A stretch of DNA of 57,077 nt, filler included, from Asterionella formosa (GCA_002256025.1; 6 parts of 6 records of this genome joined end to end with filler, not necessarily neighbours in it); one strand, 5' to 3'. Shown: positions 4,611 to 53,286, counted from the first letter of the whole stretch. Notes: generated from the letters alone by a model not told the origin. Translations and numbers: made by a program.

Positions 4611-4884
4611 TGTTAGAGAAATTATTTTAGGAAAGAAAAAACCAGTCTACTAACTCGTACCCTGGTCCCGCTACCCTGGTACTAACTACCTGGTACTTCA
4701 CAATGATTATAACGTGTGTGCCAGTCGTATCATCAAATTAAACACGGCCTCCGCATTACAGACATCTTGCTTACAATGGTGCTCAAACCTGCAGTACTCC
4801 ATACTGCCGAAAATAGAACATAAAAACGGTAATAGAGTGCAAAAGACGTTCGACACACTCACAGCCCCCACCATTGCTTGAAGC

Positions 4885-5802
4885 ATGGTCAGAATAAATA
4901 GACAATCAAAAGCAGCAAGAAACAATCAAGAGATGGTTTTTGGAAGCATTTATGTTGTAGTCCTTATTCTTGTTGGATACGTTGCGCTTCGAGGAGATCC
5001 CGATGACGCGGCCCTTCGTCAACAAGCAGACGGTCGTAAGAAGCCTCAAATGGTGTCCCTGGTAGATCCTAATGAGAAACCAGCCGAAACTCAAGTGTTG
5101 TCTCAACGGATGACGCAATGTCCCTACACGACAATGGCCGATTTGTCAAACTTGGAACGCTACCCAGAGGCGGGAAGTCGACACATGATAGACCCGCCGA
5201 AAGGTGGTACAGTGACTCTTGTTTGCTGTCAATCAACAGCAGGAAATATGAATATTGCAGTTCATCACAAATGGGCTCCAAAAGGGGCTGATGGCTTCGT
5301 CACAATGGTCAAGGAAGGATACTTCTCTTCGCAGGTCCCGCTCATGCGATGTATTGCAGGTTTTCTTTGTCAATTCGGTTTATCAGGAAGCCATGAATTG
5401 AACAAAATATATGAAAATAGGAATCTGATGGATGATCCCAACTGGCTACCAGAGGGACCAACCCACAAGCAAAATAGCGCGGGAGTTAAGCGATTCGCGA
5501 AGGGATATATGGCCTATGCCGGCAGTGGGCCAAACTCGAGAGGGACGCAGCTCATAGTCAGCTTGGCAGACGTAGGACCATTGGCAGGAGGGAGTCCCTG
5601 GGAGGTCCCTTGGGGTGAATTGGTGGGTGCCCATTCTTTTAAAACTCTTGCTACGTTCTTTACCGGATACGGGGAAGATGGCCCGCCTCAAGCATTGCTA
5701 ATTAAGGAAGGCGCATCAGAGACTGTGCGAGCCAAGTGGCCACTCTTGGATTATATTACGGCATGTGAAGTCTTGGACCAAGAAATTCAAGTTGAAAAGT
5801 AA
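4885..5802 (+). CDS. Cyclophilin-type peptidyl-prolyl isomerase with N-terminal membrane anchor (copy 1)
   Basis: 305 aa, intronless. TM VFGSIYVVVLILVGYVAL; WAPKGADGFVTMV..GYF, LMRCIAGFLCQFG (catalytic R/F/Q), GYMAYAGSGPNSRGTQLIV. Confidence 0.9.
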   Translation: MVRINRQSKAARNNQEMVFGSIYVVVLILVGYVALRGDPDDAALRQQADGRKKPQMVSLVDPNEKPAETQVLSQRMTQCPYTTMADLSNLERYPEAGSRHMIDPPKGGTVTLVCCQSTAGNMNIAVHHKWAPKGADGFVTMVKEGYFSSQVPLMRCIAGFLCQFGLSGSHELNKIYENRNLMDDPNWLPEGPTHKQNSAGVKRFAKGYMAYAGSGPNSRGTQLIVSLADVGPLAGGSPWEVPWGELVGAHSFKTLATFFTGYGEDGPPQALLIKEGASETVRAKWPLLDYITACEVLDQEIQVEK

Positions 5803-6569
5803 AAAGTATACTCTATATATCAAAGTCTACAACTCCTCTCATAATGAAGTCACATTATATAGTTTCTTGACCAAGGTTCAAGCCAGACTACTCTACTCTA
5901 TTTATAGGCAAATTTCCTTTTTGACAAGCAGTACACAACGTGCTAAGTGCACCGACACTGGTGAGTTTACTCGCATGGTGAGGCGGAAGCAATCTCAATC
6001 TTGTGTCCGTGACGGCATGTTCCACAGATAACAGCACTAAGTAATGACGAGCGCGATATGTGCTGATGATTCTTCTTCTGTGTGAGAAATCCCGCATGAT
6101 AATAAGTGCATTGAGATTAAATCAAGCTTTGGGTGTCGAGTTCTATTTATCAGAACTCAATACCGGTATGCTACGGTGCAAATGCATCTATGGAGTTCGT
6201 GGTTCCACTAAATATCAAAGGGTTGGGGATATGGACTACCTGTATAGCTACGATTCATTACTGTATACTCATACTTAAGCAAAATAACAACTTCCAGCTT
6301 AGTACCCCAGGTAGTCTAGAACTCATTAGGTGCGTAAATACTGGTTCCTGGTTATTACAGGACGGTGCTTTGAAGGCAGAAAACATGAACCTTCTAGTAA
6401 AGCAAATTATGGGTCAATGGCCAGAAGCAATGTCAAATGATTCTTGGGCATCGGGACTTGAAAGTATGTTGGGATTGAAAAAACCCATTAGCGTACCAGG
6501 TAGGTAGCGGCATCCTTGGTAATGAATGAATGATGAGAACCGTCAAAACACCAACCAATATTACAAAAG

Positions 6570-7439
6570 TCATCTTGGAGGAATCATAGCTTCGTCGATC
6601 ACTTGGCATGATGTTATGTAGTCCAGTAGTGGCCATTTCTGCATCACGCTCTCGGATGATCCTTCTTTACTAAGTAGGCCTTGGGGCGGTCCACCTTCGC
6701 CGTACCCAGTATATATCTTGCCTAGGGTTTCAAAGGAATGAACTCCAACAAGCTCACCCCATGGCACCTCCCATGGACTTCCTCCTGCCAAAAATGGCTC
6801 GTCAACCAAGCTAACAATGAATTGGTTGGATCGACTATTCTTCCCCCCACCGGCATATGCCAAGTATCCCTTGGCAAATCGCTTCACCCCTTTTTCATTC
6901 ATTCGATGACTTGGTCCTTCTGGTAGCCAATTGGGATCATCGTCCAGGCGTTGGTTTTGATATCTCTTATTCAACTCTGGAGTTCCTGCAAGACCGAACT
7001 GGCATATAAAGTCCTTCAAGCATCTCATCAGCGCAACCTTCGAGGAGAAATATCCTTCCTGAACCAATTCCAGGAAATGAGCGGCTCCCACTGGAGCCCA
7101 GATGTGATGTACCGCCATGGTCATAGGACCCACTGTAGTTTGGCAGCATACGAGGGTGACTTTCCCTCCTCGAGGTGGATCCACCATGTGACGAATCCCC
7201 GCGGCTGGGTAGCGTTCTGCATCTGTCAAGTCGGAAAGGCTGGAGTATCTACAGGATGGCGCAGCTTCCTTGGTTGCTACTAGTATAGGTGCACGCTGTT
7301 TCGTAAGGCCGGATGAAGAAACACATGTTGTAACATAGGCAATAAATCCAAAGAGGAGCAAAGCAATGAAAGAAGCATAACGGCTGCTTCTGTCCTCCTT
7401 GTCGGCCCTACTTGCCGATTGCAATTGTATTTGCACCAT
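6570..7439 (-). CDS. Cyclophilin-type peptidyl-prolyl isomerase with N-terminal membrane anchor (copy 2)
   Basis: ATG at 7439 (MVQIQLQS, parallel to MVRINRQS of copy 1). TM YASFIALLLFGFIAYV; LMRCLKDFICQFG, GYLAYAGGGKNSRSNQFIV, SPWEVPWG. Confidence 0.9.
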   Translation of the reverse strand: MVQIQLQSASRADKEDRSSRYASFIALLLFGFIAYVTTCVSSSGLTKQRAPILVATKEAAPSCRYSSLSDLTDAERYPAAGIRHMVDPPRGGKVTLVCCQTTVGPMTMAVHHIWAPVGAAHFLELVQEGYFSSKVALMRCLKDFICQFGLAGTPELNKRYQNQRLDDDPNWLPEGPSHRMNEKGVKRFAKGYLAYAGGGKNSRSNQFIVSLVDEPFLAGGSPWEVPWGELVGVHSFETLGKIYTGYGEGGPPQGLLSKEGSSESVMQKWPLLDYITSCQVIDEAMIPPR

Positions 7440-7933
7440 GATTGGCACAAAGTAGATCACGGCAAGTGTGAAGTTCGAATACACCGTACCCCGTGCCACA
7501 GGCTACCGGTACTGGTGCTCCTTCCTGCGAGGTACCCCTGGTACCTGATGGCGATGACTAAGAAAGCAGCGTATAAATAACACGAATAATACCGGTACAA
7601 TCCATAGTGTCACATGTACGTAACCTCATAAACATACCGGATACCGGTGTGTGCAAGTCCCCTCGCTCAGGTAGAATAAAATTCTGTGTGAGGTTATATG
7701 CTCTGCCTGTGCGGAGCATCATATAACCGGTAGTGTGCGTTCGTGAAAGAATTCTGTGTTTCAAGTCAGGCAACAGGCACAGATGCGGGGGTAAGTATAA
7801 ACGAAAGGGTCATTCTGGCACACGAATCTATAATTAACAGGGTCAAAGATAACAAAGACTGTTTTTCACATTTCCCTATCGCAGCGAAACACATCACATC
7901 GCACCCTTCGATAACCCACCCATAACGAACAGA

Positions 7934-8536: not shown

Positions 8537-8959
8537 ACGTCTTTTCGTCATGTGGATGTGTGCTGGTTTAACTTGTTCATGAATTTATAATATTCATTTT
8601 CAATAGTAGCAACACAAGTAGGACGTAAATCAGAAAGTCAGCATCAGTATTTTCTTCGTCGCACTCATATAAAACAAATTACGTGGTGTCTACTCATAGA
8701 CAATGGGCCGTCGTCCATTTAATCTTCGTCAAATGAGATCAATGGAAATGTGCACCTGCGTAATTGTCGAGGATGAGACCATTCGAAGGGGAGAAAATAA
8801 GATCGGCCCGACTAAGTAAGAGCAGCTGTATTGTGTGTAGCAAACAATGTGAAACTCATGCATATTTGGCCCGATCAGAGAGGAATGAATAAGCGAAGAA
8901 CGCTTTCGGACCTCACGTTTTGATTGCATTTCTGTTTAGTGCTGGGCTGTATACGAATT

Positions 8960-11481: not shown

Positions 11482-14400
11482 GTTGTTGGATTGATTGATG
11501 GAGGAGTATGGTTTTGTCCATCATCTGTGCTGAAATTCTCAATTGTTGAGATGGTAGTTATCTGATATGTTCTTGATCCTTCAGAATGGCAGGCTGCGCA
11601 GTGGTACATCCAAATTGGTCAGCTGAGGATTTTGGTCAGGATTCATGTTCCTTTTTTTCAATTATTAACCCAATTTTGCCCATTGTGCAGTGTCAGTACT
11701 GCACAGTTGTTTGGACATTCTATTCATAAGCTGTTTGTCAATCTTGCTATGATCAAGAAGTCAAATGTTCAGTTTTTCCTCTTCCTACAAATGGGATAAA
11801 TGACTATCCAAAATCATCAAGAAAATTAATCCATCTAGTTGATCAGTAGATGAAAGTCATGAGTAAAAGTGCTAAACAACAGTTTGTAGAATCAGTGAAG
11901 TAAAGGTCATCAGAATTTGATCATGTATGGAACTCAGAATGAAAACAAGTCGTAATAAATGTCAACCAATGAATGTCACACACAACAAGTAATAATTGCT
12001 TATGTATTGAGATGCTTCAAATAAGTTTTAGCCTTATTCCCTGGCCTTCCAGCACCCAGAGTCACCACATTTGTTGGTGGGATGATACTGGTATAGGTTA
12101 AGTATTTACAAAGAAATTGTCATGTGGACGCCAGGGAGCGCGATGCGGGCCTCTCTTCTAGCCATTGAGTTGTTTTGGGGCTCATAAATTAGGTAATATT
12201 ATTTTAGCCTTGTTTGACTTTTCAAGCATGAACAAGTAAGGATATGCAGTAATATTCACGCAATTACCGGTATGTATGCATCACCTATCCTAGAATCAAT
12301 GATGTATGCTGGTGGTATGCCATGCAATGCTCTGATAAAATACCACCTATCACCACTCATGAAGAAATCATTCCAACAGTGCTTAATTGGTGGCTTGCTT
12401 TGTACCTTGTGTTGATTCCACAATTCAATTCTTTCAATGAAAATTTAGTATGTTTTATAGCCCATTCGTACTCCCCTATTTCTAGTAGGCAAGTTTGTCA
12501 TTGTGCTACTTGCCAACAAGACCTGTGCTTCCCTAGTTTTATTAGCGTAGGTGAGTCTCCAACCATCTTTCGCGAAAGGTGCTGATCGTCTTAGCCACAG
12601 CGTCAGGGGAAACTCGTCCGACCGACTAGAAAGGCGGCACAAGCTGCTTGTAGGGGGGCAACCCACTATTTCTTGCACACCAGCAGACAAGACCGTGCGG
12701 GACAGTAAGGAGTGTGGGCATCGAACCCAACAATTGCTTCTCAAAAACATTGCCCACCTTGAATAAAGCATCCAACATCTTGCTTAATCGAGTGAGTTGT
12801 CGTTTCAGTGCGTTCTTCAATGCTTCGGTAACATAGATTCCCTTAGCCTTCGCATCAGCGATGTATCATGCAGGTTTCATCATCAATTAATTTGGCGAAG
12901 TAATCGAGATTGTCTGGTAGTAGTATTTGTTATCACATCACTCAAACAAATCCAGGTTTGACATGATTGTGACCATTATTTTTTATGCACCAATTTCAAT
13001 AGTTTTCCAAAAAATTGTATTGAACAGCTCCCGATTTACTGGAATGCCCAAAAGTACATCCCTTTTTCGTAACTTGGATGCCACCTCTCAGATATGGGCG
13101 GTTTTTCGGTAACCATGAGAGACACTTGCCACCTCCGAATTCTTGTTTCACCAACATACTGCAAAGATCATGAAGTAACATGGCAGAATTTCAACCTTCT
13201 TCCACTTAACTCTTTCGATCTAAATGAAACTAGTTCTCAAATGAATGTCCATCCCAGACATAGCTATCATATCCTAGGGAAAAACCAATCCCCAAGATAG
13301 GCATGTGTAATTGATATCTAGTTTTTCGTGTTGATATTCAAATTTTGGCTCTTGCATACCATTTGATTCATGAGATGTGTGAAGTAATGTATAGGTATGA
13401 GGCATAAAAATCCTGACATCAGTTTCAGCATTCACAACTGGTTGCAAGACAGCACCTGGAATACACATTGACAACAGTTGCCAAAGCATGTTAATGTTGC
13501 TTGTTGTGTGATGTAGTAGCCAAGAACACCATTTTTTGTCGGTAAATCCACCATATGCAATAAATGACTTTGCCTTGCCAGTAATTTTTTATAGTAGTCT
13601 CTGAGCTCATTCTTGAATCCAAAATTTTTCTTGATAAATTCCTTACTCTTGCCCTCTATTCCTACTTGTCGCAAAATCCGGGAAGTGCTGACGTCCAGAC
13701 AGGACAATAATTTGTCCCAAAGAAAGTATCAGGAAGAAATGACAAATTCAAGAATAACATTTGGATGAAACTAGCACCTTCGATTTGAGTGATTGTGTCG
13801 TCTCCAACAATAGATATAACCAGCTTCATGGGCGCGGCTAGCTACTTTCGCAAGAAAACTTTGTATCGCGTGAACTCGTTGACACTTTGTCAATGGCCAA
13901 ACCTAATTGCTTGACAAAACCTCAAACTAACTTCATGTTGGTATAAGTAACAGGAAGTAGATGTCATCCAACCTTCTTGCCTCCCTTTTTAAATTAGTGG
14001 AAATGAACTTACAGTATCCAATCTTTGGATCATGATGTCCTAAAAAATATCCAGGTCCACATTCCTGGGGTACTTGTCGAGGAGGTGACCTTTTAGAAAT
14101 AAAAAAGCAACTAACAATGGTCAGTGTTGTCCCTGGTGTGCTGGTCAAGCAACACTCAAAGTCCACACTTCATGACAACACGATATCTGTGTTCATGAAG
14201 TGATATGGTGGCCATCACCCTCCCAAGTCGGCCAATTCCAATACATTGAAATATTTCAAAATATTTCCATGTATTTATTATACCTGTAACCGTTATAAAG
14301 CTTCAAACTGAAAAGCGCTGCCACCTTTCACAGTACAATCGTTAACTACCGACTTCAACTTGCTGACTGCGGACTTAATTTTGCTAAGCAATGCCTAACT

Positions 14401-15942
14401 GCAGACTTGATTTGCTGAAAATTTGAAATATTCTCTGAGTGCTGACTTCATTTTTCTGCCTACTGACATGAAATCGCTGACTGATAACTTCAACTAGATG
14501 ACTTCCAGCAACCTGCTGGCTGGGTAGGAAAAAACCAGCCATATCACGAATTGTGTTTACTTTTCATATTTCATGGACTTCATATCTTGTGGAATAAAAG
14601 TTAATATTTTTTTTATGGGGTACCTGGTAACGTGCTGGGGAATAGCTCCTCTGTTTATAATTTTTTATTCTATTGCGCTGGTGAGAGCTTGCTTTGCTAT
14701 TAATACTGGAACATGATAGGAAAATTCATGATGTCGAGTCATGAACACGTCAGAATTTACACGGTATTGTTGTTGATGCCATCCACTACCGGTAACTTGG
14801 TTTACCTGGTAAACAGACGAGCCTTGCTTCCTACCTTGATAGAATCTTAATTGCACACTTTGCTATCAGTTATTGTGAATCACTGTTACATAATAAAAGT
14901 TTTCGCATTCAGCTCATCCTGCTGTCGAGAAGTCTGAATTAGAATACTAGCTAGCAACATTGTTAGCAAGGCAGAAGGGGCCGATACTAGTAGTCCATCT
15001 TTAGCAAAGCAATCCTTTTAAAAACTAAATTAAAAAATGGTTCGTGAATTTTAGAGCGCATTATCGACGTTATATTTTTTTTATTAGAAACCATTTCATG
15101 ATTAAGACAGGGAAGTACTATCGGTCTCAATAGAATGGCTTGAGGTGTTGGGATGTGATGATTTGTGCAGCATGCTAGTAGCTAGTCATCATGACTATTC
15201 AAACTCGACGTGAGATGAATGATTTCATTATATACCGGTAACAAAAAAGCTGTACTGACAGAAGAGATAACTGAAACAGAAAACACAGAGATGTGGTTGA
15301 AAGACAGCATTGTTTGTTGTACCAATCTACAGAGGAGCTCACAGGCAGGGCAGCAGACCAAAGTTTTGATAAGAACAATATTGAGGAGAAATAGGGACAG
15401 ATTCAATCCTATTGGGGATCGTTGTTTTGTATTAAAGCTAAATATATATAGGAACAACAAGACAGTTGGGTTGGGTTATTAAACGGATATCAAGAAGGGA
15501 CACATGTATCAATTTGGAATTGGAATCACAGTACTTGAACTTCAATAATTATATACCGGTATATGCACCGATAGCACGAACCCCCCACTCCTCTGTGTGG
15601 AAGGGAGAAGGTGAACGCTACGGAGTATCGAACTTCCGGTTGTTCTCTCTGGCGGCTGCCTTAACCTTGTCGTTTTGTATTATTATGTACGTACAACTTA
15701 TCAGCACAGTGCAAAAGAAAGTAAAACCCAACAGCTATTTGCACGCATCGTTGTGTTTCCTTCTCCTTGCTCCGTCCCTAGTGCTCTTGTTACTTGTTAC
15801 AAGTGTTATATTTCAGGGAAGATCAAGCCACGGATAGGATATAGATCAAATTTCATTCTGAGCGACTCCCAAATCTGAGTTGCCCCACTAAAAGGTGATA
15901 CCGTCTTCATTGTCCTCGTAGATTCACTGCACAACGATAAAC

Positions 15943-17871: not shown

Positions 17872-18923
17872 AGGTTCCTGCATTTCAACCCTTTTTTGCT
17901 TAGGGTTGCCGAAATTCCCTGGAACTAAGAATTTATATGAGCTATTTTTGAATAACAAGATTCCATTTGAAATATTCAAATCAGTGGAAATTTGCGTGTA
18001 CGTGCATAGATTCCTTTTCGAATCCGCTAAATACCAGGGTATATAGTTATTGATTGTACATCTGTATGTATATACCGGTATACATCCACTCTATACACTG
18101 ATTGACGGTTGACGTGTCATACGACCCGGCGGCTTGGCAAATATTTTAAGTTCTTTCTAGGAGTGGTACACATGTGTCAAATGATAGTCATCTACCCGTA
18201 GTGGACATGGTATCGGCGTACCGGCGATCACACAAGAAAATTTTAAATGTGTATCCAGTGTGGCCGGTTTGGGTTTGCAAGACCTCGCAAGCCGGGCAAA
18301 TCAAATATCGGTAAGTAATTGAACTTGACCAATAAAAATATTTATAGTGAAGCGGACACTTACAATGGAACTTTTTGTACAGAAGATTTTAGGACGAAAA
18401 ATTGAATCACAAGACTTCAGTTCCGATGATGACGTTTTGGCGATTATTGATTCTGATTCCAAAATTTTGGAGACCGTTGAAAAGGCAAATATTGTCGAGT
18501 TTTTGAACAACGATAGCTCAACGTTGGCAGGGTTTAAAGAAGAGTTAAGCATATACGTAATCTTCGTATAGCCCCAGAAGTTAACTTTCGGCGAGAAAGT
18601 GCAGAAAGGAACTTCGGTTTTTAAATTAGGCCGAATAAACAAGTTGGCCTGGTAAAATCCACTATTTTCAGCATAATTAAAAAACCTAAATTCCTTTCTG
18701 CAGTTTCTCGCCAGATCCTATATCCTGACGATATATAGCGGTGACCTATACCCCTACTTTGACAGAAGCCTGTATCTAAGCATATGGAAAGGGTGCATAT
18801 TGATGAAAGCTCCGTTTAGCGATATACATTTATGTTTTACTCGTAAGAAGTCTCTGTTTGAGTACTTTGACTCAATAGTTTTTAAACCCTACCTCTAAAC
18901 TAGGGTTGAAATGCAGGAACCTT
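17871..18923. mobile_element. About 1.05-kb non-autonomous TIR element with perfect 22-bp inverted repeats and an internal foldback (18590-18712)
   Basis: aaggttcctgcatttcaaccct (17871-17892) is the exact reverse complement of agggttgaaatgcaggaacctt (18902-18923). A related terminus occurs at 26494-26526. Confidence 0.7.
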
Positions 18924-19556: not shown

Positions 19557-19870
19557 TACCAGGTACCAGGTACTCCGAGTACCTGGTATTTCATTTTACA
19601 TGGTGCGTGTATATGATGCTGTGTATCATAGGATGCAAATTGCCGTAGCACCACAGCAGTGGAATATTCTCACCAGCATAATACCCGGTAGATACTAAGA
19701 TTATAAAATGAATACCTGGTACCTGGTACCGGTACATATGATGGCTCGACAGCTGCATATGACGGACTGACGTACGGACATTCTACAGCAAGTGTAGACT
19801 TTTAGAGGGCACTTATACGGAGTAGGAATACCGAGTACCGGGTAGACCTACCGGTACCTGGTACCAGGTA
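19557..19870. repeat. Cluster of palindromic GGTACC(W) micro-arrays upstream of the GT23-like gene
   Basis: taccaggtaccaggtac, tacctggtacctggtaccggtac, taccggtacctggtaccaggta. Confidence 0.85.
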
Positions 19871-21411: not shown

Positions 21412-22131
21412 TAAATGGAGGGTAATGATTAGAGTAATTTTTGTCCATGTGAAATGTACAGTAAATAGAAAGAACCCAAAAGTAATTTTAAGATCAGCTC
21501 TTTCAGGTTGCGGCTCTGCATTTGTGTAGTTTGAGGTCTAAATTTTACAAATTTTTTTGTTGATACACCTCAAACCATACATTACTTGCAACATGAACCA
21601 AAACTATTTGTAGAAAAAATTTGCATTCACTATTACTTGTCATCAATTTACATTTGCCTAGATACAGTTACAGGACAGATTATGGCTATGTTCAATTTTT
21701 GGTATGGTCGTAAGGACCTCTTTTCTGGAGAGTAGTGGCAGTTATTTCCCTTAGGATTTTCATGTTTAATCACTTCAATTATTTCTTCACAATTGTAAGA
21801 ATTTGTGGGAAATCGATGCAAAGTTGATTTCTAACTCACGTGATGTGATCATGTACCGCTTCATACTTATTACAATGTTCTCTTTTTCATGTGATATTTC
21901 ATTACAGCCGCCACGTGCAAGTTGAGGTAAAAGAGAATTTTAGCTTTGTTTCCTAAATAGTAAGAACTTTCACAGGTATACCTGGTACGATACTGTACTG
22001 CACCAGCTTTACCAGCTATACCGGTACATCACCGCGCCCAAATTATACAGTATACTACCGGTATGTATCGTTTTTGAATCATTTGCTCCATATTACATCT
22101 TATTTTAATTTATACGAAGCCAGCCATCATC

Positions 22132-23255: not shown

Positions 23256-25302
23256 TCGTCCTTGTTGGGGTAGGAGGGTATGCCTCTGATTGTCTCGTGT
23301 TTTTCTGTGTGTGGCAGATGGAGATACTATACTTGAACATGTTTCTTGTAGTTGTTTCTTGGAATGGCCTTGTTTAATTATATTGGAGGATTATAATTGA
23401 TAGCCAAATAAGAAATAGGCAAGGTTTTGATAAATATGACAACTCGTGGCTACCAGCAAATAGTGGTTGGTCAAGATCTTGGTCTAGATTGATGTGATGG
23501 ATTCCATTTAGAGCAAACCGCAGCTAGTAAGTGGTATATATCATTTCAGTCAATCATGAGACCCACCAATCAAGTCATATTGGTTAGAAAAAGTTATGAT
23601 GAATTTAAAGAAACTTCATTTCGCTCTAGCTAGCAGTAGCTTTCTAGTATGATAAGTGAATAAGTCGCTCTTCCAATATATACCAAGACTAATACAGTCG
23701 TAGAAGCCTACTTGTATTTAGTCAGCTGGCAGGAGCAGCAGGAGTGCTGATCTTACTGCTAGCAGTACCGGTACTTGCCAATAATCTCATGTATAAGTTC
23801 TATTTGTGGACTTGGCTGAGACTCTACTTTGGTGAGATTTGACAGTTTTAACTCATCTTTTATTGTTGCAGGGCCAAAACCCCAAAATGTATTCCTCTGC
23901 TGTTGGTCAGTCAGCACCACTGCTATCTGGTAATTTATTGACATCATAGTGTGGCAAGTCGACATGAATCTACAAAGCTCATCCTGATTGGCTTGCATCT
24001 CACCATCGTATTGGTTCACACCATGCTGGAACCACATGAAATTGTTTCATGAGTATGGTACCTTTGCCCAGCAAGTCACTAAATACTCCCAACTCGAACT
24101 CTATTTTTGTTCCCCATCATTGGCAGCAGCTCCGCCACCAGCATCAACCTTTGTTTACTTCAGTGTATGGTTCTATGAACTCCACTGCTACCTCATTGTA
24201 GTGCAAAAATAGCCAGAGCCACGAACAAAAGCGCTGCTTTCGTGCTTTGCTTGCCAACGCAATGAAACGCAACTTGATGGTTCCCCTTCTTGTTCAAAAA
24301 TCTCAATTCTCAGCTCTTATGCAGCCATCATTGGAGCTCATTTGAAACTGCCAATGCACATTTGGGTCAGGGAAGTGTATGGATGACAGGGAAACCATGG
24401 TATGGTCTGCACATTGGTCCTCCAGTTGCTGTCAATCGTCGATTTCATGGCTGATTGGAAGGTTGGTTAATTCAGCACGTCATGGTACCGGTATATTTAT
24501 TTTATGCTTACTAACTAAGATATACGATATTCGTACATTACTTTTACCGTTATATATCGGTTCCGCCATGACCACAGTTGTTACTTCCGGGTAAAGTTCG
24601 ACGACCTACCGGGTACACCAATACCGCATAGCAAGTAGAAGTACATACTCAATAAACAGCTAAATATCTCATTTACCGTATGACCGCAACTTGAATTTGA
24701 TGGCAGGAACCACACCTCGACAAAAAATGATGGATCGTTCGTTCCTTTGTCGTGTCATCGTCACAACGGAGACTACCTGCTTCCGTACTGTTATCATGCA
24801 GGATGGGCTATTTCTTTTTCAGAACCTCGTTATTCAAATTACATACAACAGGGTCTTTTTACAAATATGGAACAACACGAATTTTTTTCCAACACTTTCA
24901 CACCGCTCGTTTTGTTATAAGGATTCCATGACACGTTTCACTGTCGAATGTAGTATGACTTTTCAATGTTACTCCTTGTTGCCCACAGGTGATTTTAAAA
25001 AGATTGCAAAATAAATCGCAGATTAAATGACTCAGCCTCTGAAAGGGGCCATCTGACGTTGCACATTCTAGGCATCACCACCACATCACATTTTAGCTGG
25101 ACCACACACCTAAAACAGACCTATACTTGAAAATACTAGTCTAACAATATATATCATAGCTTACATTGATGAAAAATGACTTAATGAGAGCCATGTATTA
25201 GCAAATCCTTCACTAAATGAAAGCAAGCAGTCCCCGAGCAACAATAATCAGGAGAAGAATACCGATACGCTCATCCCTCGCCTTTAGTAACTCCTCTTCA
25301 TT

Positions 25303-25986: not shown

Positions 25987-27266
25987 GAATCGTCATGATG
26001 CTTACTTGGCTATTGGTGTGCAGTGTACAACATGTCGTGTAAATTGAACTAGCATCCTTACTTGATCAAATTGTATATAGTAATAGTTGTTGTATTGTAC
26101 ATGTAACGTTTTCTTGGACACAAAGCAAACCACACCCTGCGGTGATGGAAAGCAATTTTTTTAATCTCTTGGAATCACATGTTGAGACCGAACTCATGAT
26201 TGCCAGTTATTTGTGTAAAATAGACACTGACCTGCTATTATGTCGCATGGGCATCCATTTGGCTATCGTTTGTTGTGGAGAGCTATAGCATACAATTACA
26301 TATCTTGGTATATACCTACCGATCACTTTTTTCACAACCAAAAATACCAGTAGTTTAGCTTGCCCTCGTCTGTGCTGTTGGATCCTGTCCTCTCATTCAC
26401 CTTATGTTACGTGCAGTAAACATTTTTATGTTTTAGTCGTATAAAGTGTACCGGTATGCGTTGACTATCTGGTACCGGTACTCTCCCTCGAGCAAATGCA
26501 GGAACCTTAAAGGGGGCGACCTGTAGTACACAAGTACTTGTACTTCTACAGCACTCTTTCATCCCACACCAGTTGTTACTTGGTACCCTGGTACTCAGAA
26601 ACAACAACGTCATTGATTGGCTGCTGCTTTGTTGGTATAAAATGTTGCTCAAACATACTGTGCTTACCGGTACACTCCTTTATTTGCATGGACGTACTGG
26701 GCATGTACTGCTTCACCAAACAGAAGCTGTTCTTTGTTGCGGTGTAGCAGAACATGAGGATGGTTTGCTTACACCATAGCTACATAGAGTCTGAGTGAAC
26801 CACGGTACCGGTAGACATTATTTTTATTTAGCCAGAATTTCACCACACAGCACCAGCCACGAGGCTCCTTGCCAAGGAGCAACAACATCACATCGACAAG
26901 CAATTCTGGTTCTTTTAAACGCCGAGAAGAAGAACATGACCACAATATATATAATTCTACAAACAATAATCCAATTGCCTTTCAGTATCTGTATGCGTCC
27001 GTTCCATGTCGTATCCCTCACTATGTAATGCGATCAAAACCTTTTGGTAAAGCAAAACGATGAATAAAAAATTGTCGTATGCACCCGGTATTCATGTACA
27101 AATATATACGGTCGAGCATGTTCGATTATAAATTCGAAACGAATACCGGTAACTGCATGCCTGGGTTTTACCAGCTAATACGGTTCAAGTATGGTCCCTG
27201 GTACTAGGTACCGCCTGGCACTCTCAGGAGTAACCTGGTACCAGGTACCAGGTAGCAGGTACCATC

Positions 27267-28613: not shown

Positions 28614-29047
28614 ACCTACTAGCCGTTGCGATTGCCATCTTCAATTGGGGGAAAGTGTTCAATGGAGTACCGAACTACCGGTATATCTAAACCCATACAA
28701 CTAGGATGCCACAACGACATACTCAAGAAGGCATGGCTGATGGCAGATACCGGTTGTTGCATTATTAGTTGCGGCTTGTCACTGCAACAAGTTGCGGTAA
28801 TGATGCTCAATAAAAGATTTAGCTCTCTTTATCGTAAATTAAATTGCCTACCGGTATTGAGGAACAACAACTACAGTGGTACCAGGCACTCTGTATAACC
28901 TGTACTCGCTCACCGCCAGGTATTGTTTCGATAGCACACTCCTCGGCCGTCAGACCACCCCTCCTCAGCCGGAGGAAAGAATTTTTTCACATTCGCTCAT
29001 GACGATGGAACCGACCATGGAAACGACACCATCGCCTTATACTGTGC

Positions 29048-35753: not shown

Positions 35754-35901
35754 GGTACCGGTACATGACCTGGAGACCTTAGTACAGCACCAGGTAACAG
35801 GTACCTGGTAACATACCAGTACATCATGGATTGTTTGAACAAGGTGACCGTGCAAGTGCTGCCTGGCACTCTACCAGGTATCAGGTACGGAGTACCTGGT
35901 A
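35754..35901. repeat. GGTACC(W) micro-array cluster upstream of the minus-strand hydroxylase gene
   Basis: ggtaccggtac, caggtacctggta, taccaggtatcaggtacggagtacctggta. Confidence 0.8.
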
Positions 35902-37005: not shown

Positions 37006-38042
37006 GATGAATCGAGTCAATATTGGATAACTGACTGGGACTTGTCGGATGCGAAGCAAAAATCTTTTCATTGAGTCATCAGCTGGTGTCAACCTAGAGT
37101 ACGTAAAGAAGCACTGACGTCGTCAAAGCACTCACCCAAAACCACAACCAAGAACTACCGGTACCTGGTACGGTAGGTTGATAGCATGTATAACGATACA
37201 TATTATTACAACGCGTATACCGGTACATTCACCTACATGATGCATACGCACTACTAAACCCGACTCAACGTATGTACAGATATATACTACGGTAGAGGAC
37301 ACATTTATTACACCCACACGAACAATACACATTCAACGGTCTATCATGACATGTGCATAGCTATGGTCCATGATGTGTATGGAGATTAGCGGTAGCAGTT
37401 TGTGAAAAGAATACCGGTACATACGGTCAGCAAAATAATTTACGCCATTAGTAGAATGTGGCACCAAAATTTCGGTTACCCTTTCTGTTGATTTCTGATA
37501 GCCTTTCCGGAAAATTACTTCTCTAGATTTTATATGTAGTGATAAATAAAGGAAAAAGATATTTCGTCCCCCTACATCGATATTTTGTCCCCCTCTTTTT
37601 TAAACCCTTAAACCCTAGCCTACATAGCCTTCATATAAACCACCAATTATTTTTTGCTAGTACACGGAAATCAGTTGGCTTGATGACACTGCCGTGACAG
37701 CTGCTACTCATACTACACATGCACATCATTGTGTTCAAATTGACCCTGATGGCCTCAACTAAAGCAGTCAGAGCCTATTGAGGACAATACAGAGGAGGGA
37801 CTGGACGGCCCTGTACAGGCGTTCTACGGCGCTGTAATTCGAAGATACAGAGCGCAGTTGTGCACTTGAATGATCAGCCCTCGACCCTCAGTCTACATGA
37901 TGTCAAGGCGAGATAATTGTGGAGTTCATCATCTTTGCTGGCTTCCATTAAAAGATCAACAGAGGGAAAGCGACGGTACCTTGTCCACCGAAAATTCAAT
38001 TGAGCAGAAACCAGACCAACGAATCTTGGAAGTTGCATCTTG

Positions 38043-38166: not shown

Positions 38167-38830
38167 GCAGGATCAAAGAAGATGATGGATTTTGTTTACA
38201 TTCCTTAAATTTTAGTACCGGAGTCCGAACTAACCACAGCCAAGTCCCTGCATGCCGCGCGCGGCTGGGCTGTTGTTTGTACTTCTACACGTTATATCAA
38301 ACTCGTGAACTATGCTGGGAAGTTCTGGTACCGGTACCAACAAAGGACAAATTCTTAGCAGTATATTATACCGGTAGCAGACTATGAGAGGAAACGAAGC
38401 TAAATTTCTCATTCAAAAGATCATTAAGTTAGCTACAGCAACTTGCTCTGGTGGGTATGTGATACTTTACCTCTCCTCTCCTGTGCGTGGTAGGAGTATG
38501 TACAGTGTACAGTGTACAGTATATACCGGTCCTGGTACCGTAAGACGGTACCGGTAATTTGTAGTCGCGGCGAAGGTGTAACAAAAAGTCTGCCAAAAGC
38601 AAGAGTTTATAAAATGGAGCCGAACAACAAATAGAAACTTTGTTGACCTGCTCCATTTCGATTACTATTTCGGGTATTCCAGATTAACTTGTTGGAACTG
38701 CTTCCTATCGATAACTGACTTTTGTATTTTATTGAATTGAATCGAATCGAATGGAATCAAACCGCTTCATTTACCATTAACTTTAGCCTTTATACGAATT
38801 CGTGTCAGTACACACAGAAACAGAAACAGG

Positions 38831-43686: not shown

Positions 43687-43853
43687 CCGATGAACAAACG
43701 AGAAGCGATTGTTCAGAAAAATGTGAGACCGCCAGATATTTGCACATCTTGTGATTCGTGTTTTTGTTTCGTGTTGTTTTTCATACAATGTTACATGTTC
43801 GTGCATACCGGTATATAAAAATGAAATTATTAACTCGAGTAATGAGATACTAT

Positions 43854-43880
43854 GGTACCTGGTACCAGGTACCTGGTACC
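43854..43880. repeat. Four GGTACC units at 7-bp period
   Basis: ggtacc-t-ggtacc-a-ggtacc-t-ggtacc; contains the perfect 20-bp palindrome ggtacctggtaccaggtacc. Confidence 0.95.
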
Positions 43881-43975
43881 GTTATGTTGAGAATGGGTGG
43901 TTCGAAGAAAAATGGGTCCTCCGCCCTCAGTCCATGCACCTCCATTTTGCTCGAGATAGAGGCATATACGGTAGT

Positions 43976-45094: not shown

Positions 45095-46252
45095 TTGGAG
45101 GATCTCTGCCTTTGATTGGCTATACTAAGTAACAAAACTAGCTGATGTTCTGGAAAGAAGGGAATTAAATTCCATAGTTGTGCAGTACTGTCTACATAAA
45201 CCAACAGCCCTTCACCTAGTTTGTTTGCTGTAAGGAATGTTGTGATTGCTTGAACCTTGTATAATTGTTGAGCATTTTGTAAAGGAGCAATGGAAGATTT
45301 TTATATTTTCATGCAGGTATTAGAGGTTTTGACAATCACTGGCTGAGCATCTTCTTGTGAGTATAACTCAGTACCATGTTACTTTGTAGGATGATTTGTG
45401 TGACAATGGATCAGGAGAGGTTTTGTGTCTCCACTGCATAATGTGAAACTACACTTTAGGTGCCATTAGTGCATATTCATGAATAATTAATTGGAGTAAT
45501 GTACCAGTATATGTGATAACAGCTATCTCAATGGATGAGAAAAAATGAAAGGCTGAAGATAGTAATGTAAACAGCATATGCACTTCGAAAGTAAGTTCTA
45601 GATTATTGTAAGAAAGTTATTTTTGAACTAAAAACAGCTACAAGTGTGAAAGAGTAACGGAAAGGAATAAAAGCAAGCACCCACCAAGTGCACCACTGTA
45701 CAAGAGGGATGGTCAGCAATGCTGCAGCGGAAAAAAGGGACAGTCATTAGTTGGTGACATCATGATAACATGAAAACTAGACATGAAATTATAATCTCGT
45801 CTAGTACACTTACTACCGGTATACCACCAGTAGACTATAAAAATGGAATAGCCTAGAAAAGTCTAGACTACCGGTAATGGTAGTGGATTTGCTTACAGTA
45901 AGTTTTAAAAATATATATTTTCCATATACCTGTATACCGTGGTCGTGGCTACACCGCCTGCTCTAAGCATGAGTACTGGTGTGTGTTGCTCGATCGTCAT
46001 GCATACAAACGCGTGCTGGTATTTAGCACCAGGTACCGGTGTACACAGCTGTATATTCTTAGCATTATGCTCATACAATATACTGATTGATGGCTGTGGT
46101 CCTGATTTGTAATTTTGTCTCTGGCTGGAGCCCAATTGCTGATACTCATGCTAACGATAAACACACACCAAACTCTTGAATAAATCTACATTATATCATC
46201 ACTCTTATCCTATTAAAGACATACCCCATCCACCCATCCAATCATTGACAAC

Positions 46253-51196: not shown

Positions 51197-51571
51197 TTGG
51201 AATTTACGTGCAACATGGTTTGTCAGTTTCCTTTAGCATTTTGTGTAATAAACTGAACGAAGATAGATATACAGCAAGTAGTGCACCGTAATTAAAAGAA
51301 TCATATTTTACCGCTACATACCAGTGTACCTGGTACCGGTTGTCGTATAACTAAATGATGATCGAAAAAATATTACTATGTAAGCTTTATTTAATTAGTA
51401 CCAAATAAACATATAATATATATGGCAATAGAGTACATGATAAAAAGAAGGGAAAATTAATCTGCATTCTCCTTTCACATAAAATAGAAACTGCTTCAAT
51501 AGATAATGATCGAATAATAACAATAGTAGTTCGTCGCTGCTGTCCCCACGGCTCCTCACCACTACACACAA

Positions 51572-52534
51572 ATGTCAGAAACCATTGTACCAGAAACGCT
51601 TCTCGCTTTGGCGAAAGATGATCGCTATCTACGAAAATGTAGTGAACTATTGTCACGCGTGTTAAACAGTGTTGGCCTGGAGCATCATGGTTCTGTTTCT
51701 GGTTGGGCACTGCTCCTGTACTCTCTGTTGGTTGTCAAGCGCACCAATCAAACGCTTGGAATGGAATTCATGGGATTAAAGAGCATTGCAAGTAATCATG
51801 CGTTGTGGAGGACCATGGCAATTGTCGGATTGCTGAAGGTTGCCTTGAACTATAGTCAAAACAATGGGCTCCGAGGACAGGAACGGATACGGTTTCACCA
51901 AGAGCAGCGGTGCGCCATGCTAGCCAGATCCAGTGGTGTTGATGTACAATCAACAACAAGTTATTGGAAAAGAATCACGGAGTTTCTGCAAAAGACCATG
52001 GTGGAATTGTCCAATATTGATGAAAGCCCCGGTCCGCATGCAGTACTTTCTAGTTCCACAACCTCCATTGCAAGTTGGATTGTGAAGCTCCACCTTGCTC
52101 ACTATTGTTGGACTGGAAAATGGCCCTCATTTTGGTTCACTGGTCTCTCGAAACTATCCTCAACTCGATCCAACACTATTGCCAATAAGCCCGACACGCA
52201 TAAATGGGTTGCTGTCATGATTGGTCTGCAAGCTGCTGGGGGTGCACTCGCCTGGATTACCAATCACATCCCTCATCAAGATCAAGCAAACACATTAGTT
52301 TCACCCACAGACATTGAACCATCCTCATCTTCGTCATCAAGCCTCTGTTTCATATGTCGATTGCCCCGAATATCACCAGCAGCTTCATCATCTTGTGGAC
52401 ATGTCTTTTGTTGGAATTGTTTGTATCAGTGGACCACTAAAAAGCAAGAATGCCCATTATGCCGTTCACCATGTAGGCCACAAGATATTATTGCTCTGTA
52501 TAACTATGAACCATCTGTTGTAACTCATGAGTAG
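51572..52534 (+). CDS. PEX10: RING-finger peroxin Pex10
   Basis: LLALAKDDRY, QTLGMEF (compare TLGEEY), C3HC4 RING CFIC...CGHVFCWNCLYQW...ECPLCR..C.PQ. Confidence 0.85.
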   Translation: MSETIVPETLLALAKDDRYLRKCSELLSRVLNSVGLEHHGSVSGWALLLYSLLVVKRTNQTLGMEFMGLKSIASNHALWRTMAIVGLLKVALNYSQNNGLRGQERIRFHQEQRCAMLARSSGVDVQSTTSYWKRITEFLQKTMVELSNIDESPGPHAVLSSSTTSIASWIVKLHLAHYCWTGKWPSFWFTGLSKLSSTRSNTIANKPDTHKWVAVMIGLQAAGGALAWITNHIPHQDQANTLVSPTDIEPSSSSSSSLCFICRLPRISPAASSSCGHVFCWNCLYQWTTKKQECPLCRSPCRPQDIIALYNYEPSVVTHE

Positions 52535-53212
52535 ATGATGATTTATATTGAAAAAGTCATGATTTTGTCATCACAAGAAAATGTTGGGTGGTCGCAAATG
52601 CCCACAATTCAACCAAGGAGAATCATCAAATCTAAGTTAGCCGTGTGTAACACAACTCTGTGCTTCTGGATATCCAAGCAACAAGCAAAATGACCCTTGC
52701 AGCCTATCATGAATCTTTATATATGGCATATTAAAATACAGTGGTTCAACTTTTTGAATTTCACAACTTTGGTGCCAATTTTCATGTGGTTCATCAACAA
52801 ATGCCAATTCACGAAGGTAAGGAAACATGCCACAGTTCTAAAGTCGAAAGTTTAGCTTTTGAAAGGAAGTATATCAAAGAACAGGACGTAACTAAAATGC
52901 TCACTGCTCAAGGATATTAAAATGCAATCTAATGCTTACTACAGTCATATCTGGATGAATGATATCATTGTGATCCAAGTCAATAGTCAAGTCAAGCTAC
53001 ATGTAGCTTGATGGTCATGCAGTGTATAATAGTAAGTACATCATTTAGAATCCAGCAGCTATCTATAGGTAGGCCTGGTCAAAGGCAGGTTGCACTACCG
53101 GTATACCAATACTTTTTCAGGTAATCAAACGACATTCTATACACTCTATCCCATCATCAGGTAATGATGGATAGATAGACAGACTGTCACAAAGAAATTA
53201 TTGTTGGCATCC

Positions 53213-53286
53213 TACCGGTACCTGGTACCAGCACTACTGACTCCTAGTAAGTACAATACGAGTATATACCTGGTACCAGGTACCGG
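53213..53286. repeat. GGTACC(W) micro-array cluster upstream of the SEP-like gene
   Basis: taccggtacctggtacca and tacctggtaccaggtaccgg. Confidence 0.85.

What the first reader, a model, noticed from the sequence alone, without database searches (positions are those of the whole stretch)
4657..53286. Palindromic (GGTACC+W)n micro-arrays cluster upstream of host genes on all six independent contigs
Seen: short arrays built from the palindrome GGTACC joined by A, T or nothing (giving TACCWGGTA and TACCGGTA) lie roughly 60-800 bp upstream of the start codon of most host genes, whichever strand the gene is on. Examples: 4657-4696 (ATG 4885); 7503-7650 (divergent pair 7439/7934); 9380-9415 (9319); 19557-19870 (20185); 21979-22063 (22132); 24484-24615 (25303); 28677-28887 (29048); 30380-31365 (31475); 35754-35901 (35422); 37156-37175 (37005); 38326-38556 (38831); 43854-43880 (43686); 46027-46040 (46253); 51326-51340 (51572); 53213-53286 (53636). 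Arrays are missing from exons and from the convergent spacers 8537-8959 and 40253-40561; only isolated copies lie in 5803-6569 and 33456-33877. Flanks are not homologous, so this does not look like one transposon. Inference: a genome-wide, strand-symmetric promoter mark that expands by slippage. It could be a site for a dimeric DNA-binding protein, a nucleosome-excluding or cruciform element, or a methylation substrate, since each array overlaps GTAC, CCWGG and CCGG. I do not recall such an element being described, but cannot search the literature.
Basis: partly seen in the sequence, partly recalled or inferred. Interest (0 to 1): 0.85.

Follow-up and report, generated by a model that had tools for sequence, protein, structure and literature searches.

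The report
TA-bounded palindrome units flooding diatom intergenic DNA
A freshwater diatom's non-coding DNA, mostly on the upstream side of genes, is peppered with one exact 8- or 9-letter palindrome that is gained and lost as a whole unit, so it looks like either a transposon repair scar or a very abundant protein-binding site, and no paper found describes it in diatoms.

Summary
TACCGGTA occurs 43 times and TACCWGGTA 37 times in 57 kb, against about 0.25 expected for each. TACCGGTA is the most over-represented 8-mer. The real unit is TA-CC(W)GG-TA, not (GGTACC+W)n: only 25 of 80 copies share a TA with a neighbour. Copies avoid ORFs (2 of 80) and sit in unrelated unique DNA. The tilt towards gene 5' sides is moderate. 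It is significant per gene (21/35 upstream vs 6/32 downstream) but not in length-aware cluster tests. Similar arrays occur in other diatom contigs from metagenomes. New here: the motif is razor-sharp (72x, against at most 4x for one-mismatch variants). The central base is A/T in 37 of 40 copies. Whole units are present or absent at bare TA sites between strains and paralogues. This matches the form of Tc1/mariner excision footprints. Best reading (0.4): scars of a TA-targeting insertion process that pile up in accessible 5' DNA. Close rival (0.35): sites for a dimeric DNA-binding protein; the 8-mer is already a predicted promoter motif in oomycetes. Simple slippage is poorly supported.

The parts
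1096..1104 (.). single TACCTGGTA
4687..4695 (.). single TACCTGGTA inside a degenerate run 4657-4696, about 190 bp upstream of ATG 4885 (+, cyclophilin-like)
6161..6168 (.). single TACCGGTA in convergent spacer 5803-6569
6494..6502 (.). single TACCAGGTA in convergent spacer 5803-6569
7504..7597 (.). 2 TACCGGTA plus 2 GGTACC in divergent spacer 7440-7933
12265..12272 (.). single TACCGGTA
14621..14811 (.).
15233..15561 (.). 2 solitary TACCGGTA (15233, 15554), 390-710 bp upstream of ORF 15943 (+)
18073..18080 (.). single TACCGGTA. Nearby, 18032-18041 TACCAGGGTA is an 8-letter insertion at a TA relative to the paralogous repeat copy 20066-20177.
19557..19870 (.). 9 copies in three micro-arrays, 315-630 bp upstream of ATG 20185 (+)
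21979..22063 (.). 3 copies between stop 21411 and ATG 22132/22710 (+)
23766..23773 (.). single TACCGGTA
24486..24493 (.). single TACCGGTA, 810 bp upstream of ATG 25303 (+, ankyrin)
26449..27254 (.). 7 copies in the convergent spacer between ankyrin gene end 25986 and integrase ORF end 27488. This counts against a strict promoter location.
28318..28326 (.). single TACCAGGTA inside the integrase ORF (one of 2 copies inside ORFs)
28676..28856 (.). 2 TACCGGTA, 190-370 bp upstream of ATG 29048 (+, Pex2/Pex12-like)
30435..31353 (.). Largest cluster, 18 copies (9 + 9), upstream of ATG 31475 (+). Copies at 30746-31007 lie in an exon-like piece and those at 31060-31353 in a GT..AG intron of a spliced polyA-RNA contig. 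Unit polymorphisms at 30435 (TACCGG absent in X14) and 31143 (TACCGG added in X11).
35756..35901 (.). 4 copies, 330-480 bp upstream of ATG 35422 (-, Asp/Asn hydroxylase). Held unchanged in an independent DNA contig 35521-36083.
36293..36301 (.). single TACCAGGTA
37156..37419 (.). 4 copies upstream of ORF 36658-37071 (-). A low-depth variant adds TACCGG at the bare TA after 37325.
38329..38556 (.). 3 TACCGGTA plus 4 GGTACC, 275-500 bp upstream of ATG 38831 (+, DUF6824 gene)
43806..43878 (.). 4 copies, including the 27-letter perfect array 43854-43880, at or upstream of the start of ORF 42577-43806 (-)
45814..45876 (.). 2 TACCGGTA, about 380-440 bp upstream of ATG 46253 (+)
51327..51335 (.). single TACCTGGTA, 240 bp upstream of ATG 51572 (+, RING finger)
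53096..53282 (.). 5 copies. Two arrays (53213-53229, 53267-53286) form a 17-bp inverted repeat around 38 nt. They lie 350-540 bp upstream of ATG 53636 (+).
56295..56302 (.). single TACCGGTA

Best explanation
The element is a short perfect palindrome bounded by TA on both sides: TA-CCGG-TA or TA-CC(A/T)GG-TA. Rarer forms have CCAGGG or CCCGG between the TAs. Units stand alone in unique DNA or abut by sharing a TA, which produces the GGTACC 'arrays'. I read them as products of a mutational process that adds a complete unit at a TA dinucleotide. The most likely process is the repair scar (excision footprint) left when a TA-targeting cut-and-paste transposon leaves. The duplicated TA then frames a few terminal transposon letters, and an A/A mismatch at the centre is resolved to A or T. 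Each scar creates two new TAs in a GG|TA|CC context. If that context is a favoured target, scars would seed further scars and grow into arrays and clusters. Accumulation in accessible 5' intergenic DNA and removal from coding DNA would give the observed distribution. SHOWN: the exact grammar, the sharpness of the motif, the A/T-only centre, whole-unit presence or absence at TA, the unrelated flanks, the ORF depletion, a moderate 5' tilt, and occurrence in other diatoms. INFERRED: that a transposon is the agent, that its scars are preferred targets, and that open chromatin explains the tilt. This reading is about origin. It does not exclude that the host also uses the units as protein-binding sites.
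For: (1) Grammar. Among all words between consecutive TAs, the most enriched are CCGG (43 vs 0.6), CCWGG (37 vs 0.62), CCAGGG/CCCTGG (4 vs 0.11) and CCCGG (3 vs 0.21). This is the same form as the canonical Sleeping Beauty footprints TACAGTA/TACTGTA, described as terminal transposon letters between TA dinucleotides (passages of PMC6943129). (2) The central letter is A or T in 37 of 40 one-letter spacers and C or G in 3. Resolution of a central mismatch would give this. (3) Sharpness. The exact 8-mer is 72x over expectation. All 12 classes of one-mismatch variant are 0.7-3.9x (37 copies in all vs about 15 expected), and changes in the outer T and A also drop to that level. This looks like a stamp rather than a graded affinity landscape. 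(4) Whole-unit polymorphism. Of 10 indels between the window and four public runs over 9.4 kb, 3 are exactly TACCGG at a TA. These are 30435 (absent in X14), 31143 (added in X11) and 37325 (added in X11, depth 3 only). At 30435 and 37325 the other allele is a bare TA in unrelated sequence. One of two paralogous copies of a 113-nt repeat carries TACCAGGG inserted at a TA. (5) Neighbouring units differ in their central letter in 77 of 196 pairs, close to independence. (6) Enrichment is not confined to promoters. Density is 0.62 per kb in the first 500 bp after stops, and 7 copies lie in one 5' intron. (7) The two forms are uncoupled between species. In 30 motif-rich metagenome loci the W-form occurs 128 times vs 2.4 expected. 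There TACCGGTA is rare (0-4 copies per locus) and absent from the top-18 8-mers, while TACTAGTA is enriched (78 vs 6.75). (8) In P. infestans, TACCGGTA and its sister TACATGTA are over-represented at RXLR, elicitin and PcF toxin genes, and TACATGTA also at crinkler genes. From memory, these genes lie in transposon-rich regions.
Against: No transposon with matching ends was found. A scan for TA-CC...GG-TA-bounded inverted repeats found only the arrays themselves, both in the window and in 132 metagenome loci. None of 14 + 64 ORFs beside arrays in the metagenome loci matches a transposase, integrase or reverse transcriptase. The only transposase fragment in the window is Mutator-like, which from memory does not target TA. 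A five-letter inner part (CCWGG) is longer than the 2-4 letters quoted for Tc1/mariner footprints. The form expected from untrimmed three-letter ends, TACCATGGTA, occurs 0 times. One family of ends does not easily give both CCGG and CCWGG. About 1.4 copies per kb with no parent element in 57 kb needs a very high scar-to-element ratio, and I know of no such case. Arrays of three units need repeated hits at adjacent TAs. One of the three polymorphisms has depth 3. The one at 31143 could also be a 6-nt slippage between two TACC. A fourth palindromic indel (GTAC added after 28781) is not at a TA. The 5' tilt and the oomycete reports fit a binding site at least as well.
Confidence: 0.4

Rival explanations
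1. The units are a cis-regulatory binding site. A homodimeric sequence-specific protein recognises inverted GGTA half-sites with 0 or 1 bp between them. The sites are kept by selection as homotypic clusters upstream of most genes, like a general promoter or chromatin-opening factor, and arrays offer overlapping sites.
For: Per-gene 5' bias within 500 bp is 8/13 vs 3/17 in the window, 13/22 vs 3/15 in metagenome loci and 21/35 vs 6/32 combined, p=0.001. Within 800 bp, 11/13 ORFs have a copy upstream. Nine of 11 clusters with 3 or more copies lie on the 5' side of an ORF. ORFs flanking metagenome arrays point away 32 times and toward 15 times. ORF depletion is 18-fold. The same 8-mer is a 'high-confidence' predicted binding site, M94, in Phytophthora infestans promoters (passages of PMC3597505). 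ATACCGGTAT (streme-5) lies upstream of 206 co-expressed Plasmopara genes and is equated there with GTACCGGTA (motif-9) of an earlier study (passage of PMC10031896). The motif recurs in at least one other diatom.
Against: A binding site does not explain whole-unit gain or loss at bare TA. It also does not explain the A/T-only centre or the 20-fold drop at every position, the outermost included. Cluster-level tests that allow for spacer length are not significant. Copies remain more than 25x above chance in 3' flanks and in an intron. Seven copies lie in a convergent spacer. There is no helical phasing between copies beyond the 6.5/7-bp shared-TA spacing. The spacer-0 and spacer-1 forms are uncoupled between species. 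In the text of a protein-binding-array survey of P. infestans factors, no binder has CCGG, GGTA, TACC or GTAC in its motif. I searched passages only and did not see figures or supplements. M94 is not named in any passage I read. I did not see which six motifs were tested.
Confidence: 0.35
2. The units are neutral, self-complementary low-complexity DNA. They spread locally by replication slippage or by templated repair synthesis that copies nearby units. They are tolerated only outside coding sequence and have no function.
For: Runs of 2-3 units with periods of 6 and 7 occur 11 times in the window. Same-letter neighbours show a small excess, 119/196, p=0.003. The indel at 31143 lies next to a TACC repeat, and every polymorphic unit has another copy within about 100 bp. 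In the related diatom loci the arrays are mixed with plain (TAG)n/(TAC)n runs. Copies occur across all non-coding classes. Ordinary tandem-duplication indels occur in the same stretch: 30084, 35698 and 30066.
Against: 55 of 80 copies are solitary in unique DNA. Slippage cannot create a unit at a bare TA (30435, 37325). Neutral decay should leave many one-mismatch relics, but exact copies outnumber all 24 single variants together, 43 vs 37. 39% of neighbouring units differ at the centre. Neutrality does not explain the 4.8-fold higher density in the first 500 bp upstream than downstream.
Confidence: 0.12
3. The units are a DNA-structure or methylation element. The arrays act as cruciform-forming or nucleosome-excluding DNA, or as targets of a CCGG/CCWGG/GTAC-specific cytosine methyltransferase that marks promoters.
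For: Every unit contains CCGG or CCWGG and is flanked by GTAC when in arrays. The longest arrays fold better than shuffles: -10 kcal/mol with z -3.4 for 43848-43886, and -21.6 kcal/mol with z -5.6 for 53208-53290. CpG is depleted (observed/expected 0.68 outside ORFs). The commonest one-mismatch variant is the CpG-transition product TACTGGTA/TACCAGTA, 10 copies.
Against: Most copies are single 8-9-mers, too short to extrude. Hairpins of typical arrays are weak, -5.5 to -6.8 kcal/mol. The requirement for the outer TA is not explained by a CCGG or CCWGG methylation site. No modification data were available. There is no 10-bp periodicity.
Confidence: 0.06
4. The arrays are pieces of one transposon, MITE or satellite family, or an assembly artefact.
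For: Arrays can pair as inverted repeats, for example 53213-53229 with 53267-53286. DNA contigs of an independent run break at the arrays.
Against: No BLAST match links any two array regions in the window at E<1e-5. The 33 inter-motif intervals are no more alike than their shuffles: best 24.3 bits vs 22.3-26.3 in three shuffle sets, none reaching 30 bits. The arrays are present in contigs of independent DNA and RNA runs from other studies, for example 35521-36083 with 0 differences. In 2.9 million viral contigs the double unit occurs only 10 times and never in clusters.
Confidence: 0.02

Closest known systems
Oomycete promoter motif TACCGGTA (M94 in Phytophthora infestans, Roy et al. 2013; ATACCGGTAT 'streme-5' in Plasmopara halstedii; GTACCGGTA 'motif-9' of Seidl et al. 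as cited there)
   Same: It is the identical 8-letter palindrome, found in another stramenopile lineage. It is over-represented within about 500 nt upstream of start codons and has no known binding protein.
   Different: In oomycetes it is one of about 100 stage-associated motifs and occurs as single sites. The passages I read report no W-spaced form, no shared-TA arrays, no unit polymorphism and no comparable density. M94 is not named in any passage I read. I did not see which six motifs were tested. I read passages only. Supplementary tables (Table S1, S2) were not opened.
Tc1/mariner excision footprints (canonical Sleeping Beauty footprints TACAGTA / TACTGTA)
   Same: A duplicated TA frames a few terminal letters, the result is palindromic with an A/T ambiguity at the centre, and alleles differ as bare TA versus TA-x-TA (passages of PMC6943129).
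   Different: The inner part is 4-5 letters (CCGG, CCWGG) against 3. No parent element or TA-targeting transposase was found. Density of about 1.4 per kb and shared-TA arrays are not, to my knowledge, reported for footprints (recalled; one search was a general footprint search and found no such report).
Microsatellite-like homotypic promoter elements bound by a factor, such as GAGA-factor (GA)n tracts or the palindromic DRE bound by DREF in Drosophila
   Same: A short word, sometimes in tandem, is enriched near many promoters irrespective of strand, and would work through a sequence-specific protein that opens or marks chromatin.
   Different: No binder is known here. The units are perfect palindromes with a strict TA frame, most are solitary, and the enrichment extends into 3' flanks and an intron.
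Simple tandem repeats (micro- or minisatellites) in non-coding DNA
   Same: Period-6/7 runs of 2-3 units occur, some length polymorphism is in unit steps, and the units are excluded from ORFs.
   Different: 55 of 80 copies are not tandem. Neighbouring units are nearly independent at the centre. Units appear at bare TA sites.

Membership tests
Oomycete TACCGGTA promoter motif (M94 / motif-9 / streme-5) | Sequence: the 8-bp palindrome TACCGGTA | tested here: met
   43 exact copies vs 0.25 expected. The motif letters were taken from passages.
Oomycete TACCGGTA promoter motif (M94 / motif-9 / streme-5) | Over-representation within about 500 nt upstream of start codons | tested here: inconclusive
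   The per-gene test is positive (8/13 vs 3/17 and 13/22 vs 3/15). Cluster-level tests with a length-aware null are not significant.
Oomycete TACCGGTA promoter motif (M94 / motif-9 / streme-5) | Association with a co-expressed or stage-specific gene set | not testable with these tools
   No expression series is available for this organism. The RNA runs are kept as contigs only.
Transposon excision footprint (Tc1/mariner type) | TA on both sides (duplicated TA target) | tested here: met
   All positions including the outer T and A are required: AACCGGTA is 3.3x against 72x for the exact word. The inter-TA word scan agrees.
Transposon excision footprint (Tc1/mariner type) | Allelic states: empty TA versus TA-x-TA (and, for proof, a filled site holding the element) | tested here: inconclusive
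   Empty versus unit states were seen at 30435, 31143 and 37325 (3 of 10 indels) and between paralogues. No filled site was seen.
Transposon excision footprint (Tc1/mariner type) | Inner letters equal the terminal letters of an element present in the genome | tested here: not met
   No TA-bounded inverted-repeat element with CC...GG ends was found in the window or in 132 loci. No transposase was found beside the arrays. The whole genome was not available, so this is absence in about 0.3 Mb only.
Transposon excision footprint (Tc1/mariner type) | Inner part of 2-4 letters with a central A/T ambiguity where the ends overlap | tested here: inconclusive
   A/T at the centre in 37 of 40 copies. CCGG has 4 letters, but CCWGG has 5, outside the 2-4 quoted.
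Microsatellite expanded by slippage | Head-to-tail identical units whose number varies | tested here: not met
   Only 25 of 80 copies abut another copy. Neighbours have the same centre in 61% of pairs vs 50% by chance. Two of 3 unit polymorphisms are at a bare TA.
Dispersed repeat family (TE / MITE / satellite) | Homologous sequence beyond the short motif | tested here: not met
   No matches between array regions. Inter-motif intervals are no more alike than their shuffles.
Homotypic cluster of transcription-factor sites | A specific binding protein, and dependence of transcription on the sites | not testable with these tools
   This needs EMSA, DAP-seq and reporter assays. The literature search gave no binder.

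The most novel reading that the evidence does not exclude
Stramenopile 'promoter palindromes' would be self-propagating transposon scars. A TA-targeting element leaves TA-CC(W)GG-TA footprints that recreate its preferred target, so scars breed scars in open promoter DNA until they dominate the intergenic k-mer spectrum. The host has since come to read them as a general promoter or chromatin signal. If so, the oomycete motifs TACCGGTA and TACATGTA, published as transcription-factor sites, would be footprints of the same kind.
Probability: 0.13. Interest if true: 0.85.

Novelty: new variant of a known kind. Interest (0 to 1): 0.62.

Why it matters
Little is known about diatom promoters. A single exact word occurring about twice per kb of non-coding DNA, mostly on the upstream side of genes and shared by several diatoms, would be a major element of promoter architecture if a protein reads it. 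That would be directly useful for engineering expression. If instead the units are transposon or repair scars, this would be the first case I know of in which such scars dominate a genome's intergenic word spectrum. It would also call for a second look at palindromic 'binding sites' inferred from over-representation alone in oomycete pathogens. Either way, whole-unit presence or absence between strains gives a convenient population marker and a mutational process to measure.

Tried and rejected
1. Whole genome: none is held. The metagenome records behind my loci cannot be searched as genomes. So there is no genome-wide metaplot and no search for a parent transposon.
I then laid one piece, which used the only call.
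3. RNA cover as a guide to transcription starts cannot be used. All runs are contigs. The polyA contigs for gene 33878-35422 end at 35527 (X14) and 35633 (X11), and X14 has no cover over 35859-36488 and 37119-37433.
4. Search for TA-bounded inverted-repeat elements: only array-to-array pairs came up.
5. Allelic and paralogous indels among metagenome loci: only 2 near-identical pairs had gaps, and none was at a unit. The low-stringency HSPs were array-on-array alignments and uninformative.
6. Helical phasing: none beyond 6.5/7 bp.
7. Hairpin folding: modest for single arrays.
8. Length-aware tests of 5' bias were not significant: window p=0.047, 0.20 and 0.18 for ORF cut-offs 100, 150 and 200 aa; loci p=0.17-0.28. 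The null for the loci shares the ascertainment and has little power.
9. Viral contigs: 10 isolated hits, used only as a baseline.
10. Earlier notes of this scan: nothing on this genome, and only prokaryotic or phage GGTACC operators elsewhere.
11. Binder in the P. infestans protein-binding-array paper: no motif with these letters in the text.
12. The 200-bp replacement at 30536-30735 in the X14 contig was inspected for terminal repeats by eye. I saw none.

Full report
WHAT THE WINDOW IS. The 57,077 bases are six pieces joined by runs of N around TTAATTAATTAA. GC content is 41%. ORFs of at least 120 aa include cyclophilin-like, ankyrin, Pex2/12, Asp/Asn hydroxylase, DUF6824, OCRE/G-patch and RING proteins. 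There is also a Mutator-like transposase fragment and a retroelement integrase. Named homologues of the hydroxylase are all diatoms: Seminavis, Fistulifera, Cylindrotheca, Skeletonema and Nitzschia, at 37-48% identity. Unnamed relatives reach 64-67%. Public runs that hold piece 4 are freshwater or lake metagenomes from 13 studies. No whole genome is held.

THE OBSERVATION. TACCWGGTA occurs 37 times (0.22 expected), TACCGGTA 43 times (0.25 expected) and GGTACC 50 times (6.25 expected). In an unbiased scan TACCGGTA has the highest z-score of all 8-mers, and most of the next-ranked words are its sub-words or those of the W-form. All six pieces carry copies. The two 'empty' convergent spacers are empty. 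Two of 80 copies lie in 17.7 kb of ORFs and 78 lie in 38.5 kb of other DNA. An independent DNA run holds 35521-36083, with its array, unchanged. The contigs of that run break and rise 4-7-fold in depth at the arrays. This shows that the array words recur at many places in the genome.

ANATOMY. The unit is TA-CCGG-TA or TA-CC(A/T)GG-TA. Spacer counts between TACC and GGTA are 43 for no letter and 40 for one letter (A 14, T 23, C 1, G 2). There are 4 with two letters, then 3, 0 and 1 for three to five letters. Among all words between consecutive TAs, the most enriched are CCGG, CCWGG, CCAGGG/CCCTGG, CGGAG and CCCGG. The 'GGTACC arrays' are simply units that share a TA. Only 25 of 80 copies do so, and 14 of 28 clusters are single copies. 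Exact TACCGGTA is 72x over a second-order expectation. The 12 classes of one-mismatch variant are 0.7-3.9x. The commonest is the CpG-transition product, and CpG observed/expected is 0.68. Array regions share no homology. The 33 intervals between copies are no more alike than their shuffles. So this is not a transposon, MITE or satellite family.

POSITION. In the first 500 bp the window has 22 copies in 7.4 kb upstream of ORF starts and 5 in 8.1 kb downstream of stops. Per gene the figures are 8/13 vs 3/17 (p=0.023). Nine of 11 clusters with 3 or more copies lie 5' of an ORF. The other two (26449-27254) lie in a convergent spacer beside the integrase ORF. When whole clusters are compared with random non-ORF positions the tilt is weak: 16-18 of 27 clusters are nearest a start, against 45-56% expected, p=0.05-0.2. 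Density just downstream of stops, 0.62 per kb, is still more than 25x chance. A polyA-RNA contig splices 31051 to 31461 (GT..AG) and 31613 to 31816. That puts copies at 30746-31007 in an exon-like piece and seven copies in an intron. The element is therefore spread through non-coding DNA with a moderate 5' lean. It is not strictly a promoter feature.

ELSEWHERE. Of 56 non-redundant loci of at least 2 kb, 30 have GC 0.38-0.48 and at least 3 copies. At least one of these, L073, looks bacterial. After I masked the ascertaining match, TACCWGGTA still occurs 128 times vs 2.4 expected. There TACCGGTA is rare, 0-4 per locus, and does not rank among the top 8-mers. (TAG)n/(TAC)n runs and TACTAGTA are enriched instead. 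Flanking ORFs are ordinary genes: peroxiredoxin, cytochrome b5 reductase, endonuclease V, MCM, ribosomal protein L34, glutamate synthase, HSF and DUF6824. None of 14 + 64 matches a transposase, integrase or reverse transcriptase. Named homologues of one of these proteins are again diatoms. Flanking ORFs point away from the array 32 times and toward it 15 times. Per gene the figures are 13/22 vs 3/15. A length-aware test is not significant, but its null shares the ascertainment. In 2.9 million viral contigs the double unit occurs 10 times and never in clusters.

HOW UNITS CHANGE. Over piece 4, four runs show 10 indels against the window. Three are exactly TACCGG at a TA: absent at 30435 in X14, added after 31143 in X11, and added after 37325 in X11 (depth 3). 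At 30435 and 37325 the alternative allele is a bare TA in unrelated sequence. Three of the other indels are plain tandem duplications. A 113-nt repeat present on two pieces differs by TACCAGGG inserted at a TA in one copy. In double units the two central letters agree in 119 of 196 cases, 61% against 50% if independent. Simple slippage therefore explains little. Units behave as if they are stamped in one at a time at TA.

INTERPRETATION. This grammar is a duplicated TA framing a short palindrome whose centre is A or T, with bare TA as the alternative allele. It matches Tc1/mariner excision footprints, for which the canonical Sleeping Beauty scars are TACAGTA/TACTGTA (passages of PMC6943129). 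I therefore rank a footprint-type insertion process first (0.4). Several points count against it. No parent element or TA-targeting transposase was seen in about 0.3 Mb. The five-letter inner part is longer than the 2-4 letters quoted. TACCATGGTA is absent. The density is extreme. The close rival (0.35) is a binding site for a dimeric protein. It is supported by the 5' lean and by the literature. TACCGGTA is predicted site M94 in P. infestans, paired there with TACATGTA. Plasmopara halstedii has an equivalent motif upstream of 206 co-expressed genes. That rival does not explain the unit polymorphisms, the A/T centre or the all-or-none specificity, and no binder is reported in the text I searched. 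The two readings can both be true, one for origin and one for later use. Neutral slippage or templated repair (0.12), structure or methylation (0.06) and repeat family or artefact (0.02) follow.

NOVELTY. No paper in the library holds TACCWGGTA, GTACCWGGTAC, TACCTGGTACC or GGTACCAGGTACC. ACCWGGT occurs in one listed paper, on rhinoviruses. The 12 papers holding both ACCGGTA and 'diatom' do not describe a diatom motif (listing only). A keyword search on diatom cis-regulatory palindromes gave nothing relevant (listing only). The core 8-mer is known from oomycetes. The W-form, the shared-TA arrays, the density, the whole-unit polymorphism and the footprint reading are new as far as these searches reach. 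Supplementary tables of the oomycete papers were not opened and may hold more on M94.

Noticed in passing
window 3226, 9394(-), 15619, 19816, 35886, 38849: A second TA-bounded word, TACGGAGTA, occurs 6 times vs 0.28 expected, mostly inside or beside the palindrome clusters. It is not a palindrome and is unexplained.
   Followed up: partly
window 17922-18033 and 20066-20177 (inverted): A 113-nt repeat, 84% identical, is present on two pieces. One copy ends 8 bp before ATG 20185. It may be a small mobile element, and its copies differ by the TACCAGGG insertion.
   Followed up: partly
window 17637-17871 and 18670-18899; 1695-1848 and 18451-18604: Further dispersed repeats, 84% and 70% identical, lie within and between pieces.
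   Followed up: no
window 20296-20427: A perfect 66-bp tandem duplication lies inside ORF 20185-21411, an in-frame 22-aa repeat.
   Followed up: no
window 4885-5802 (+) and 6570-7439 (-): Two cyclophilin-like genes face each other tail to tail and are 69% identical at DNA level over 633 bp, an inverted gene duplication.
   Followed up: no
window 2204-2680 (-) and 27488-28450 (-): A Mutator-like transposase fragment and a retroelement integrase ORF, the latter running to the end of its piece. The integrase ORF holds one of the two copies that lie inside ORFs.
   Followed up: partly
window, not located: Runs of eight or more C or G occur 12 times vs 0.08 expected.
   Followed up: no
window 30536-30735: In the polyA-RNA contig of run X14, these 200 bases are replaced by 11 other letters. 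This is a haplotype or strain difference inside the largest cluster.
   Followed up: partly
window 28781: Run X6 has the palindrome GTAC inserted between CA and CT, away from any TA. No reading here covers it.
   Followed up: partly
L047 2001-2960 and other motif-rich metagenome loci: In the other diatom contigs the TACCWGGTA units are interleaved with (TAG)n/(TAC)n runs, TACTAGTA and TAGCTAGTA. These are TA-punctuated low-complexity DNA with a different species-specific mix.
   Followed up: partly
window 55698-56056: Tandem repeats with a unit of about 170-280 bp, 76-85% identical.
   Followed up: no
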